Origin: Escherichia phage vB_EcoM_VR20
DNA length: 64,000 bases
Strand: one strand, 5' to 3'
Sequence record: NC_028894.1
The position numbers and the translations under genes are program-made. Positions 16,855-19,264 of this stretch are shown in pieces (the first letter of the stretch is position 1; every line of letters starts with the position of its first letter). Below the pieces are notes generated by a model that worked only from the letters and a program-made list of their open reading frames with translations, had not been told where the DNA came from and made no database searches.

Positions 16855-17046
16855 TTATACAACGAAGATAGCTTTATCACCATTTGCATCAGTCACTTCA
16901 TAAGTGTCTTCATGATACAACGGAATAATCCAGGTAACACCATCATCAGCGATAACATGGATTGCTTCTTGGTCTTGCGACACGATTTCATATTCTTCAA
17001 AAATCTGGAAGACAGAAATCTTAGAGCCCGTACACATTGCACTCAT
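16855..17046 (-). CDS. small hypothetical protein
   Basis: 63-aa ORF. Confidence 0.35.
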   Translation of the reverse strand: MSAMCTGSKISVFQIFEEYEIVSQDQEAIHVIADDGVTWIIPLYHEDTYEVTDANGDKAIFVV

Positions 17047-17242
17047 ATTGTTCCCTTCTTTTAATCAGTTGACGATGTGCCTTTTTAAGTTTACGAATCT
17101 GGCGTTTAGTTGGTCGCGCAACATAAGCTTGAGTAGTTACTCGTCCAAAAACCCCGTACTTGGGAGACGGAGTATCAATAAAGACTTCCCACTGGCAAGA
17201 GTAACTATATATTGCTTTAGAGAATTGGGTCAAAACAAACAT
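17021..17242 (-). CDS. small hypothetical protein
   Basis: 73-aa ORF. Confidence 0.35.
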   Translation of the reverse strand: MFVLTQFSKAIYSYSCQWEVFIDTPSPKYGVFGRVTTQAYVARPTKRQIRKLKKAHRQLIKRREQYECNVYGL

Positions 17243-17243
17243 A

Positions 17244-17597
17244 TTAACCTCGCTTCATGAAGGCATTAAAAATCTGGTCGTCAACAGACTGTTCTTGAGC
17301 TTTGACCCAAGCCCCTTCCAGAATGTCATTCGCTTCAGTAGATATCATGACCCCAATTTCAGGGTTTCCTGTTATCCATGCTGCACAATCGCGCACATTC
17401 TTTTTATCAAATGGATAGCCGCGAGTATCTTCATAAGGCCCATTCATTACCATAAATGAGCGAGCCTTTATGATAACATCATCTTTAACGATAATATAAC
17501 CAATCGCCTGATTAAACCGAGGCTCACGGAATTCATAATGAGCATTACCATCATTATTGCTCGCCAGTTCAAAATTCAGAAAATTATAATAACTCAT
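17244..17597 (-). CDS. hypothetical protein flanked by 37-bp direct repeats
   Basis: 117-aa ORF; C-terminus VDDQIFNAFMKRG is encoded within the repeat. Confidence 0.45.
   Translation of the reverse strand: MSYYNFLNFELASNNDGNAHYEFREPRFNQAIGYIIVKDDVIIKARSFMVMNGPYEDTRGYPFDKKNVRDCAAWITGNPEIGVMISTEANDILEGAWVKAQEQSVDDQIFNAFMKRG
17249..17285. repeat. 37-bp direct repeat, copy A
   Basis: ctcgcttcatgaaggcattaaaaatctggtcgtcaac, identical to 17604-17640. Confidence 0.85.
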
Positions 17598-17598
17598 A

Positions 17599-18033
17599 CT
17601 AATCTCGCTTCATGAAGGCATTAAAAATCTGGTCGTCAACTGAATATACAGGGGTTTCCAGAAGTTTCAAAAGACTGTTTTTGATGTACTTACCCGGGAT
17701 ACCCATATTAACAATACTGTCATTCAATTCATTATCAGGGTTGATGTCTTTAAATTCAAACCCGTCAAACTCAACCTTGTCAGGAATACCATCAGCGAAA
17801 AAATAAACCAATTGGTGCATTGTATTGCACGAAAATAATTTGGACTTGACCGCAATAAGTTCTTGCCAATGGTTTAATTCTCTGTTAAGGAGTTTATGGG
17901 CAAACGTAATTCTATTATCACTATCAACAAGAAAATAACCCAGGTATTGAAGGTCGTCGCTCCAAAACATCCTGTATGCTTGCGCATTTGGATTTTTACA
18001 ACGAAGTTTTTTGATAACTAAATTTCTGTTAAT
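17599..18033 (-). CDS. hypothetical protein (start trimmed to MINRNLVIKK); C-terminus shared with the downstream gene
   Basis: Track ORF 17599..18123 trimmed to the Met overlapping the upstream stop; ends VDDQIFNAFMKRD. Confidence 0.45.
   Translation of the reverse strand: MNRNLVIKKLRCKNPNAQAYRMFWSDDLQYLGYFLVDSDNRITFAHKLLNRELNHWQELIAVKSKLFSCNTMHQLVYFFADGIPDKVEFDGFEFKDINPDNELNDSIVNMGIPGKYIKNSLLKLLETPVYSVDDQIFNAFMKRD
17604..17640. repeat. 37-bp direct repeat, copy B
   Basis: Identical to 17249-17285. Confidence 0.85.
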
Positions 18034-18037
18034 CATT

Positions 18038-18331
18038 TTATTCACCTGTAACCCATTGAACAATTTTGCTATTGTCAAATGAAGCATCGCAATACAGAAC
18101 ATAGTTATACTGCATAACGTCACCAGAAGTCAATTGGTCAGATACTTCTTTAACCATATCAGGGCGGTCACGTTTAGTAATATTCATGATATCAGCATAA
18201 ATCTGATGTTCAACATCAGTCTGGTCAGCAGTCATAGACCACTCACAAAGGTCTTTATCAAGCCCAGCAGTAACTGGAGCTGTACCACATGATGCTACGG
18301 TAAGAATTGCTGCGATTAATAACTTTTTCAT
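18038..18331 (-). CDS. sp: periplasmic protein, Spackle-like (superinfection exclusion) by size, signal peptide and position
   Basis: 97 aa; signal peptide MKKLLIAAILTVASC; DKDLCEWSMTADQT region resembles T4 Sp as I recall; lies between 61 and 41. Confidence 0.5.
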   Translation of the reverse strand: MKKLLIAAILTVASCGTAPVTAGLDKDLCEWSMTADQTDVEHQIYADIMNITKRDRPDMVKEVSDQLTSGDVMQYNYVLYCDASFDNSKIVQWVTGE

Positions 18332-18391: not shown

Positions 18392-18733
18392 TTATTTTTC
18401 ACCTTCAACTGAAAAACCAGTCAATTTGTAATATTCAGCACGTGCAATATGAAGAGCCGCTTCAATATCAGTAAGGCAGATTTCTTCATTTAACAGTTGC
18501 GCTTCAACGGTCAAAATCAGATTACGCAATGCAGTACCCTTACGCATGTCTACTTTATGAATTAGCTTGTCATCAACAAAAGCTTCAACCAGCGCATTAT
18601 AGTTATCAGCAGTCTTTTGGACATACCAGTGAATACCTGCGGGATGGAACATGCTAGAACGTTCAAAAGATGGTACACCAACAGCACTCACTTTGATTGT
18701 TACTTTTACGCGGTCTTCTGGATTAAAAGCCAT
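18392..18733 (-). CDS. hypothetical protein, paralog of the next gene
   Basis: 113 aa; YNALVEAFVDD matches NNALVKAFVND of the 18734..18946 product. Confidence 0.4.
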   Translation of the reverse strand: MAFNPEDRVKVTIKVSAVGVPSFERSSMFHPAGIHWYVQKTADNYNALVEAFVDDKLIHKVDMRKGTALRNLILTVEAQLLNEEICLTDIEAALHIARAEYYKLTGFSVEGEK

Positions 18734-18946
18734 TTAGATTTCCTCAGATAAGTGGATATGATAATCATATTCAAAAACTTTATTGTCATTAACAAAGGCT
18801 TTAACCAGTGCATTATTCACTTCTGCATACTGCACTGTAACCCATTCAATCATATTTTTGTCACTGACATCCAGCGCGGTTTCTTTGGTAAACATATTAC
18901 CATTTTCAAACCAACCAATAAACACTACGTTCTCTAATTTATACAT
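18734..18946 (-). CDS. small protein, possibly Dmd-like (anti-RNase antitoxin) by position and motif
   Basis: 70 aa; FIGWFENGNMFTKE and QYAEVNNALVKAF resemble what I recall of T4 Dmd; uncertain. Confidence 0.35.
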   Translation of the reverse strand: MYKLENVVFIGWFENGNMFTKETALDVSDKNMIEWVTVQYAEVNNALVKAFVNDNKVFEYDYHIHLSEEI

Positions 18947-19264
18947 TTAGATTTCCTCACAAAACGCCCAGTCAGCGTGATAAACTGTTGCGCCTTTAGT
19001 ATCATTTAAGCAAACCACGTCAACAGGTGCAATCACACGATAAAGACGGGGTTCTCCTCCATATGAGCGAGCTGCTCTTCCTGCATAGATACGCGCCAAA
19101 CCAATATCTTCAGTAAAAAACACACGCCCTAAATTTTTCTTACGCCCAACTTCTGACAGAACACCAGTTGCATCAGGAGGACAAAGCATATTTTGGATTC
19201 CAGCATTAGAGCTTGACCCATGATAATAAACTTTGTATTCTGCCTTGCAATCAATGGTTTTCAT
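18947..19264 (-). CDS. hypothetical protein
   Basis: 105-aa ORF. Confidence 0.4.
   Translation of the reverse strand: MKTIDCKAEYKVYYHGSSSNAGIQNMLCPPDATGVLSEVGRKKNLGRVFFTEDIGLARIYAGRAARSYGGEPRLYRVIAPVDVVCLNDTKGATVYHADWAFCEEI

What the first reader, a model, noticed from the sequence alone, without database searches (positions are those of the whole stretch)
17244..17640. Perfect 37-bp direct repeats flanking a complete gene, giving two neighbours the same C-terminus
ctcgcttcatgaaggcattaaaaatctggtcgtcaac occurs at 17249-17285 and at 17604-17640, encoding the shared C-terminal VDDQIFNAFMKR of two adjacent unrelated ORFs. The repeats bracket the whole 17244-17597 gene. This looks like the footprint of cassette insertion or duplication by recombination between short homologies, and the gene could be excised by recombination between the repeats.
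Basis: seen in the sequence. Interest (0 to 1): 0.5.

Follow-up and report, generated by a model that had tools for sequence, protein, structure and literature searches.

The report
Shared tail on neighbouring anti-defence-island genes
Two neighbouring phage genes end in the same 37 bases because both belong to a small group of T4-type phage genes (including the known anti-defence protein AdfA) that keep an almost unchanging 14-residue end, and this shared end also serves as the place where phages recombine to gain, lose or swap these genes.

Summary
In detail: a perfect 37-bp direct repeat (17249-17285, 17604-17640), extending to 49 nt at 94%. It covers the last 13 codons, the stop codon and the next gene's ATG of two adjacent minus-strand genes.

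It is not an insertion footprint. The peptide S(I/V)DDQIFNAFM(N/K)(R/K)(G/D)* is the native C-terminus of three families that occupy the T4 gene-61.2 slot in Tevenvirinae: AdfA (anti-DarT factor A), phrog_4122 (the 117-aa gene) and phrog_8539 (the 145-aa gene). Each family carries it in genomes that lack the others.

Bodies diverge to 34-48% identity while the tail stays invariant, and synonymous sites vary freely, so selection acts on the peptide. Predicted structures put the tail as a separate helix after a low-confidence linker. The three families are each other's best structural matches, so they are probably distant paralogs.

Three natural indels of the 4122 cassette (T4/L040, MX01/UGJNEcP3, VR26/VR7) have junctions inside the repeat unit. 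Tails group by genus rather than family. Perfect identity is confined to the window's clade, which points to recent gene conversion.

The tail's function is unknown; a docking helix is my inference.

The parts
17604..17640 (-). Tail 1 core: perfect 37-bp copy. It encodes VDDQIFNAFMKR at the C-terminus of the 145-aa (phrog_8539) gene. The extended repeat unit is 17595-17643 and includes the codon GAT (D), the stop TAG, a T and the ATG of the 117-aa gene.
17249..17285 (-). Tail 2 core: perfect 37-bp copy. It encodes VDDQIFNAFMKR at the C-terminus of the 117-aa (phrog_4122) gene. The extended unit is 17240-17288 and includes GGT (G), the stop TAA, a T and the ATG of the TifA-like gene. The last two codons (CGA GGT) also contain a GAGG Shine-Dalgarno-like sequence for the next gene.
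17599..18036 (-). 145-aa gene, phrog_8539 (JS98 gp030 / VR7 ORF039c family). The start is taken at the ATG (MINRN), as in the annotated homologs. The mechanical ORF runs to a GTG at 18123.
17244..17597 (-). 117-aa gene, phrog_4122 (RB32ORF033c family, annotated '61.2' in T2 and VR7). This is the cassette that is present or absent among relatives.
17021..17242 (-). 73-aa gene directly after tail 2: DUF7279, homolog of T4 gp61.4 (TifA), 39% identity, E=1e-13. It is absent from MN01.
18038..18331 (-). spackle (sp), the upstream boundary of the slot.
   Evidence: PF25676, E=2e-43
18734..18946 (-). dmd homolog (antitoxin against RnlA/LsoA). It marks the 'anti-TA island' context.
   Evidence: PF17587, E=8e-20; PMC9391042
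15607..16635 (-). DNA primase gp61, the conserved core gene on the downstream side of the variable region.

Best explanation
The repeat is the coding sequence of a hyper-conserved 14-residue C-terminal tail, S(I/V)DDQIFNAFM(N/K)(R/K)(G/D), plus the stop/start junction. Three gene families share it and fill the gene-61.2 slot of the T-even 'anti-TA island' alone or in tandem: AdfA, phrog_4122 and phrog_8539. They are probably distant paralogs. The window carries 8539 followed by 4122. Shown: the tail is conserved by selection on the peptide, and it is predicted to be a separate amphipathic helix after a low-confidence linker. Inferred: it is a common functional module, most likely a docking helix, attached to divergent bodies. 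Shown by comparative evidence: because the tail DNA stays 85-100% identical over about 40-50 bp, the phage's homologous-recombination machinery uses it, together with the TTAATATG stop/start junction, as a crossover site. This produces precise gain, loss and exchange of whole gene cassettes and homogenises the tails within a genome. The perfect 37-bp identity in this window is a recent gene-conversion or crossover tract specific to this clade. The 355-bp unit is expected to be deletable by tail-to-tail recombination.
For: Tail native to three families: Pfam AdfA and phrog_3781 match only the last 16 residues of the 117-aa protein, and phrog_8539 and phrog_4122 cross-match only on the tail. T4 gp61.2, RB14 ORF033c and the MX01/VR26 145-aa homologs all end in the tail followed by (T/A)ATG. 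Degenerate DNA scans of viral, metagenome and genome collections found the C-terminal tail only in these three families. Constraint on the peptide: a search with the body alone against 1.84 billion representatives found three real full-length lineages (93%, 48% and 45% identical to the query body), all carrying the tail. P0043 has a 34%-identical body and a 13/14 tail. Tail pS is 0.50 against pN 0.06; in the core, pS is 0.70 and pN is 0. There is no RNA structure at the junction. Separate helix: AF2 gives H106-115 and H133-142 after low-pLDDT linkers. Paralogy: reciprocal best Foldseek hits among 4122, 8539 and AdfA, and collinear tail-less profile alignments. Recombination: T4/L040 358-bp indel with a 37-nt ambiguous junction; UGJNEcP3 chimeric tail; VR26/VR7 junction in TTAATATG; 7/7 tandem AdfA genes end NKG and 5/5 single AdfA genes end NRG. 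Concerted evolution: tails differ by 2.9 of 39 nt between families within a genus, against 5.1 within a family between genera. The two tails differ by 0 mismatches only in the window, RZ, UPEC01 and DK-13, and by 1-6 elsewhere. T4 is known to recombine at 6-10 bp homologies in this very region (PMC9391042).
Against: Body homology is not significant by sequence once the tail is removed (hhalign probability 0.6-30%). Foldseek scores include amino-acid identity, so the shared tail contributes to them. The AF2 models are of moderate confidence (pLDDT 75 and 66) and rest on shallow alignments, so low confidence in the tail could reflect alignment depth rather than real flexibility. No function or partner of the tail was tested. 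The position-specific tail ends (NKG versus NRG) could also reflect selection on the Shine-Dalgarno sequence of the particular downstream gene. The direction of each indel (insertion or deletion) cannot be resolved. The pN=0 value for the core is partly imposed by the search pattern.
Confidence: 0.72

Rival explanations
1. Insertion footprint: the 117-aa gene was inserted, and the event duplicated a short target sequence, giving two unrelated genes the same end.
For: Related genomes without the gene have exactly one copy of the repeat (VR26, MX01).
Against: The inserted gene's family carries the tail on its own in genomes that have no 145-aa gene (RB14, T2, P0050). AdfA carries it too. The tail is conserved as a peptide across four genera with free synonymous change.
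Confidence: 0.04
2. The conserved element is a cis-acting nucleic-acid signal (promoter, terminator, RNA structure or translational-coupling element) that happens to be translated.
For: The last two codons contain GAGG 7 nt upstream of the next ATG. The stop/start junction TAATATG is nearly invariant. A sigma70-like match ends 3 nt before tail 1.
Against: Nearly every degenerate third position in the core varies (GAT/GAC, CAA/CAG, ATT/ATA, GCC/GCT/GCA, TTT/TTC) while the peptide does not. Folding gives z-scores of 0.13 and 1.5. No promoter or terminator match lies within the repeat. This reading can explain only the last 10 nt or so.
Confidence: 0.08
3. Pure common ancestry: the identical tails only reflect slow divergence of tandem duplicates under strong purifying selection, with no gene conversion and no role for the tail in recombination.
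For: There is strong peptide-level constraint and probable paralogy.
Against: Synonymous and K/N differences are shared by different families within a genus rather than by orthologs across genera. Identity is perfect only in one clade. Three indels have junctions in the repeat, and one tail is chimeric.
Confidence: 0.1
4. A PeSL-type mobile regulatory cassette, or a homing-endonuclease or integron-like element, moves the gene.
For: There is presence/absence of a single small ORF flanked by direct repeats in a hyperplastic region, as for PeSL cassettes (PMC2839356).
Against: The repeat is coding rather than intergenic, and it has no promoter or stem-loop. The 117-aa protein has no nuclease or integrase domain.
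Confidence: 0.03

Closest known systems
AdfA, anti-DarT factor A (T4 gp61.2; Pfam PF23813; LeRoux lab, PMC11257639 / PMC11825919)
   Same: Same genomic slot between sp and 61.1. Identical C-terminal 14-residue tail and stop/start junction. Best structural neighbours of each other in BFVD. Located in the region called an anti-TA island (PMC9391042).
   Different: AdfA is 208-216 aa and looks like two copies of the domain. The window genes are 117 and 145 aa with one copy each. The Pfam AdfA model matches only the tail, below its cut-off. No anti-DarT activity is known for them. The literature treats T2, which has only the 4122 gene, as lacking adfA (PMC11257639).
PeSL promoter/stem-loop cassettes that mediate modular shuffling in T4-type phages (Arbiol et al. 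2010, PMC2839356; Comeau et al. 2014, PMC4122927)
   Same: Short direct repeats flank single small ORFs in a hyperplastic region. Recombination between them explains presence/absence between relatives. The predicted by-product is a mini-circle.
   Different: PeSLs are intergenic regulatory modules (early promoter plus terminator hairpin). This repeat is protein-coding, conserved as a peptide, restricted to one slot and one group of genes, and has no hairpin or promoter.
Short-homology (microhomology) recombination in T4: dmd-tifA amplifications and deletions (Srikant et al. 2022, PMC9391042)
   Same: Same region of the genome and the same machinery. The VR26/VR7 junction lies in 8 bp (TTAATATG), within the 6-10 bp range reported there.
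   Different: Those events use arbitrary short matches and arise in the laboratory. Here a 37-49 bp homology kept by selection is reused repeatedly in nature.
Concerted evolution by gene conversion between tandem paralogs
   Same: A tract is identical within a genome while the flanks diverge. Variants are shared by paralogs within a lineage.
   Different: The tract is very short (about 37 nt) and coincides with a discrete functional peptide and the gene boundary.

Membership tests
AdfA family (Pfam PF23813) | Whole-protein match to the Pfam AdfA model at or above its gathering score (27 bits) | tested here: not met
   117-aa protein: 21.4 bits, on residues 102-117 only, against model positions 196-211 of 211. 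145-aa protein: no hit.
AdfA family (Pfam PF23813) | Occupies the gene-61.2 slot between sp and 61.1/primase | tested here: met
   Synteny in the window, SP18, VR7, T4, RB14, AR1 and JS09.
AdfA family (Pfam PF23813) | C-terminal ...S(I/V)DDQIFNAFM(N/K)(R/K)(G/D) tail | tested here: met
AdfA family (Pfam PF23813) | Shared fold of the body | tested here: inconclusive
   Foldseek reciprocal top hits: E from 2e-5 to 2e-4 between 4122, 8539 and the 157-aa AdfA fragment, TM 0.43-0.57; E=1.5e-3 and TM 0.51 for the 212-aa apparent AdfA. Tail-less hhalign alignments are collinear but weak, P from 6e-4 to 0.1. The models are of moderate confidence.
AdfA family (Pfam PF23813) | Binds and neutralises DarT1 | not testable with these tools
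   Needs a bacterial two-hybrid or plaque assay, as in PMC11257639.
PeSL mobile regulatory cassette | [quoted passage not shown] | tested here: not met
   The repeat lies within coding sequence. The intergenic part is a single T.
PeSL mobile regulatory cassette | Strong sigma70-like early promoter within the motif | tested here: not met
   No promoter-like match lies inside either copy.
PeSL mobile regulatory cassette | Stem-loop terminator | tested here: not met
   MFE z-scores of 0.13 and 1.50; no terminator-like site at the repeats.
PeSL mobile regulatory cassette | Recombination between flanking copies explains ORF presence/absence among relatives | tested here: met
Target-site duplication / insertion footprint | The repeat is created by the insertion, so the inserted gene does not carry it natively | tested here: not met
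   4122 homologs carry the tail as single genes in RB14 and T2; P0050, whose genomic context was not examined, carries it too.
Gene conversion between tandem paralogs | The tract is more alike within genomes or genera than between orthologs, and is bounded by divergent flanks | tested here: met
   2.9 against 5.1 mismatches per 39 nt. The 37-nt perfect tract is bounded by TCT/TCA on one side and GGT/GAT on the other.

The most novel reading that the evidence does not exclude
The tail is a universal adaptor helix that docks interchangeable anti-toxin 'heads' (AdfA and its unrecognised single-domain paralogs 4122 and 8539) onto one common phage or host partner. The same 40-50 bp that encode it act as a built-in, selection-maintained recombination site. 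The 61.2 slot would then be a natural cassette exchanger for counter-defence genes, and phages described as 'lacking adfA' (such as T2) would in fact carry a paralog.
Probability: 0.3. Interest if true: 0.7.

Novelty: new variant of a known kind. Interest (0 to 1): 0.5.

Why it matters
AdfA is one of the few known phage inhibitors of a toxin-antitoxin defence, and it is described as having no homology to known protein families (PMC11257639). This locus indicates it has two shorter relatives at the same slot. All three are marked by an invariant C-terminal helix that no paper I found mentions. That gives two concrete candidate counter-defence genes and a defined 14-residue element to test. It also gives a clear natural example of a functionally constrained coding segment acting as the homology for gene-cassette gain, loss and exchange in T4-type phages. 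One practical point: the published T4 adfA deletion (61.2 delta 65-196) removes residues up to I196, so it leaves the DDQIFNAFMNRG tail in frame. Its lack of phenotype therefore does not test the tail.

Tried and rejected
1. A tail-only search of the 5.8-billion-protein collection failed: the query was too short. A 40-residue C-terminal profile returned only short fragments.
2. Word-indexed homolog searches reached only close relatives. More distant members had to come from the phage, IMG/VR and metagenome loci.
3. I looked for a promoter, MotA box or terminator in the repeat. By eye, the -10 and MotA matches were poor, and the scan found none inside the repeat.
4. RNA structure at the junction: none.
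5. The antisense ORF starting in the tail (17612-17806, + strand) is not a gene. Its ATG comes from the palindrome TTCATGAA, which is lost in Tequatrovirus tails (TTTATGAAT).
6. Solved-structure relatives: none by sequence or by fold.
7. By eye, the tail does not fit the PIP-box or beta-clamp motif consensus. I dropped this idea; it rests on my own knowledge and was not tested with a tool.
8. Other ORFs in the window with a tail-like C-terminus: none.
9. Homing endonuclease, integron and transposon readings: no such domains in either gene.

Full report
**1. The observation**

The 37-mer CTCGCTTCATGAAGGCATTAAAAATCTGGTCGTCAAC occurs exactly twice in the window, at 17249-17285 and 17604-17640. 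No further match appears even with 3 mismatches allowed, and none is expected by chance. The gapless repeat extends to 49 nt at 94% identity (17240-17288 and 17595-17643, 355 bp apart).

Both genes are on the minus strand. On that strand the unit reads TC(T/A) GTT GAC GAC CAG ATT TTT AAT GCC TTC ATG AAG CGA G(G/A)T TA(A/G) T ATG. That is S-V-D-D-Q-I-F-N-A-F-M-K-R-(G/D), a stop codon, one base, and the start codon of the next gene. The same perfect pair is present in three independently sequenced phages, so it is not an assembly artefact.

**2. Context**

The window is a Gaprivervirus-type T-even phage. It is 98.3% identical to vB_EcoM_RZ over 1.8 kb, and SP18 and VR7 are related. In transcription order the locus reads:

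- dmd (18734-18946)
- a 113-aa gene
- spackle (18038-18331)
- the 145-aa gene (17599-18036)
- the 117-aa gene (17244-17597)
- a 73-aa homolog of T4 gp61.4/TifA (17021-17242)
- a 63-aa gene
- 61.1
- primase gp61

Srikant et al. call this region of T4 an 'anti-TA island' containing dmd, tifA and adfA (PMC9391042).

**3. The tail belongs to three families**

- The 117-aa protein is phrog_4122 and the 145-aa protein is phrog_8539. Each matches the other's profile only on the last 16-21 residues.
- The same residues match the extreme C-terminus of phrog_3781 and of Pfam PF23813 (AdfA, anti-DarT factor A, which is T4 gp61.2), at model positions 196-211 of 211.
- Direct translation confirms this. T4 gp61.2 (208 aa) ends SIDDQIFNAFMNRG*, followed by T-ATG. 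RB14 ORF033c and the T2 gene annotated '61.2' (phrog_4122; mechanical ORF 118 aa in both, annotated as 108 aa in T2) end identically. The 145-aa homologs in MX01 and VR26, which lack a 4122 gene, also end in the tail.
- Degenerate back-translated DNA patterns were scanned against IMG/VR, the metagenome collection and 185,579 species genomes. The peptide was found as a C-terminus only in these three families. All other matches were internal chance hits in unrelated proteins.
- The slot is occupied in five ways:
  - AdfA alone: T4, fPS-65, JS09
  - 4122 alone: RB14, T2
  - AdfA then 4122: AR1, Sf23, FN and four metagenomic contigs
  - 8539 alone: VR26, MX01
  - 8539 then 4122: the window, SP18, VR7, MN01, UGJNEcP3

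**4. What is conserved is the peptide**

- I searched 1.84 billion cluster representatives with only the body of the 117-aa protein (residues 1-103, no tail). This found three real full-length lineages, 93%, 48% and 45% identical to the query body. All three end in (S/A)IDDQIFNAFM(N/K)RG.
- In the 8539 family, P0043 is 34% identical overall but has 13 of 14 tail residues.
- Across 27 distinct tail DNA sequences, nearly every degenerate third position varies. Over the 14 codons pS is 0.50 and pN is 0.06. Over the DDQIFNAFM core pS is 0.70 and pN is 0. The core value is partly imposed by the search pattern, but the homologs retrieved by body similarity agree with it.
- The junction RNA has no significant structure (z = 0.13 and 1.5). 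No promoter- or terminator-like site lies inside the repeat.
- Only the last two codons and the stop/start junction, (A/C)GAGGTTAATATG, plausibly carry a second, nucleotide-level constraint as the ribosome-binding site of the next gene.

**5. Structure and relatedness**

AlphaFold2 models are of moderate confidence (117-aa protein: pLDDT 75; 145-aa protein: pLDDT 66). They show the same order of elements: four or five beta-strands, a helix, a strand, then a low-confidence linker, then a short terminal helix formed by the tail (H106-115 and H133-142). The pattern I-F-x-x-F-M, with acidic residues before it and basic residues after it, is that of an amphipathic helix (my inference).

In BFVD:

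- The best non-self hit of the 117-aa model is the VR25 145-aa protein (E=4e-5, TM 0.57).
- Its next hits are fPS-65 g037c and a 212-aa protein.
- The best non-self hits of the 145-aa model are a 118-aa phrog_4122 protein (E=2e-5) and the same fPS-65 protein.
- fPS-65 g037c is the C-terminal 157 residues of AdfA, annotated from an internal start.

With the tail removed, profile-profile alignments among the three families, and between the two halves of AdfA, are collinear over 69-90 columns. Each is individually weak (P from 6e-4 to 0.1). Pairwise BLAST gives AdfA 109-169 against ORF033c 21-77 at E=0.006.

I conclude that the bodies are probably distant paralogs, with AdfA looking like a two-domain version. 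This is not proven. There is no solved-structure relative.

**6. Recombination at the tail**

- **T4 against contig L040.** L040 is a tandem genome whose AdfA is 96% identical to T4's. The flanks are 96-98% identical. The only large difference is a 358-bp indel comprising the 4122 cassette. Its junction is ambiguous over 37 identical bases, which are the tail.
- **Position-specific tail ends in Tequatrovirus.** In 7 of 7 tandems, AdfA ends AAT AAA GGT (NKG). In 5 of 5 AdfA-only genomes it ends AAT AGA GGT (NRG), identical to the end of the 4122 tail that abuts gene 61.1. So the 3' end of the tail goes with position rather than with gene family. A crossover inside the tail predicts this, although selection on the downstream ribosome-binding site could contribute.
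- **UGJNEcP3.** This Dhakavirus carries both genes. It is Dhakavirus-like on both flanks, becomes Gaprivervirus-like about 25 nt before tail 1, and reverts within tail 2. The result is a chimeric tail, GACCAG...GCC|TTTATGAATCGAGGTTGA.
- **VR26.** This Gaprivervirus lacks the 4122 gene. Against VR7 it shows a 361-bp indel, and against the window a 355-bp one. The junction lies in the last 8 nt of the repeat unit (TTAATATG), and VR26's tail matches VR7's tail 1 at all five diagnostic sites. An 8-bp junction falls in the 6-10 bp microhomology range documented for T4 in this same region (PMC9391042).

**7. Concerted evolution and why the copies are perfect here**

- Over 39 nt, tails of different families within one genus differ by 2.9 mismatches on average. 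Tails of the same family in different genera differ by 5.1. For example, 4122 in Gaprivervirus differs from 4122 in Tequatrovirus by 6.0, but from the Gaprivervirus 8539 tails by 3.9.
- The K-for-N replacement (…FMKR… against …FMNR…) is shared by both paralogs in Gaprivervirus.
- The two tails within a genome differ by these numbers of mismatches in the 37-nt core:
  - 0: the window, RZ, UPEC01 and DK-13
  - 1: phage 212
  - 3-6: SP18, TH54, VR7, MN01 and related contigs
  - 1-3: Tequatrovirus tandems
- In the perfect-copy clade, the 4122 gene has a distinct 3' end (…EQS-VDD… instead of …EPPTD-IDD…, two codons shorter). Its GTT GAC codons are of the 8539 type, and the tract is bounded by TCT/TCA on one side and GGT/GAT on the other.

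The simplest reading is a recent short gene-conversion or crossover tract between the two tails in the ancestor of this clade.

**8. Comparison with known systems**

The mechanism of cassette gain and loss most resembles PeSL-mediated modular shuffling in T4-type phages (PMC2839356). The repeat fails every structural criterion of a PeSL: it is coding rather than intergenic, and it has no promoter and no hairpin.

The genes resemble AdfA in position, tail and probably fold, but they do not meet the Pfam AdfA threshold. I did not find the shared tail or these paralogs described in the papers I read. PMC11257639 states that T2 naturally lacks an adfA homolog, although T2 carries a 4122 gene with the tail at that slot. 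The T4 adfA deletion listed in that paper (61.2 delta 65-196) leaves residues 197-208, the DDQIFNAFMNRG core, in frame. Its lack of phenotype therefore does not test the tail (my inference from the T4 sequence).

**9. Verdict**

The repeat is not an insertion scar between unrelated genes. It is a selectively maintained C-terminal module shared by related genes. It is nonetheless used as a recombination substrate, and the bracketed gene is gained and lost through it in nature.

The tail's function is unknown. A docking or adaptor helix is my best inference, at about 0.3-0.4 probability. I rate the finding of moderate interest and class it as a new variant of known kinds: short-homology modular shuffling, and an extension of the AdfA family.

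Noticed in passing
window 18392-18946 (- strand): The 70-aa gene at 18734-18946 is a clear Dmd homolog (PF17587, E=8e-20). The adjacent 113-aa gene at 18392-18733 has a sub-threshold Dmd-like stretch (residues 34-64, E=0.0017). They may be tandem dmd paralogs. Some relatives (RZ, SP18) have a 204-nt dmd directly after sp instead.
   Followed up: partly
window 18731-18751 and 18944-18964: A second gene-junction repeat (21 nt, 90% identical)...GAGGAAATCTAAATG. It gives two more adjacent genes (70 aa and 105 aa) the same last three codons (EEI), stop and next ATG. It looks like a standard Shine-Dalgarno/stop/start coupling junction and could also serve as short homology (families D3 and D15).
   Followed up: no
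window 17021-17242 (- strand); L002 (MN01) 1947-1955: The 73-aa gene after tail 2 is a homolog of T4 gp61.4/TifA (39% identity, E=1e-13; DUF7279). It overlaps the next 63-aa ORF by 26 nt. It is precisely absent from MN01, where the 4122 tail abuts the 63-aa gene at a shared AATATGA microhomology.
   Followed up: partly
window 17643-17670 (- strand): A sigma70-like promoter match (TTGAAA, 16 nt, TATATT) whose -10 hexamer ends 3 nt before tail 1. If it is active, transcription of the 117-aa gene would start inside the tail. This is a consensus match only.
   Followed up: no
proteins P0041 and P0043 (8539 family), alignment A4: These are mosaic members. The last 29 residues (SKYIKNSLLKILExPVYS plus the tail) are nearly identical to the rest of the family, while the middle or N-terminal parts are strongly diverged. 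In this family the conserved or recombining block therefore extends upstream of the 14-residue tail.
   Followed up: no
window 17257-17266 and 17612-17621: The Gaprivervirus version of the tail contains the 10-bp palindrome CTTCATGAAG. It creates an antisense ATG and a spurious 64-aa plus-strand ORF (17612-17806). The palindrome is absent from Tequatrovirus tails (TTTATGAAT), so it is probably incidental.
   Followed up: partly
L059 (JS09, Mosigvirus) 294-899: In the Mosigvirus locus, imm and imm.1 lie upstream of sp, rather than dmd and 61.4. The gene after the AdfA tail is RB69ORF033c (junction TAAAATG). So the genes flanking the slot differ between genera while the tail and junction are kept.
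   Followed up: no
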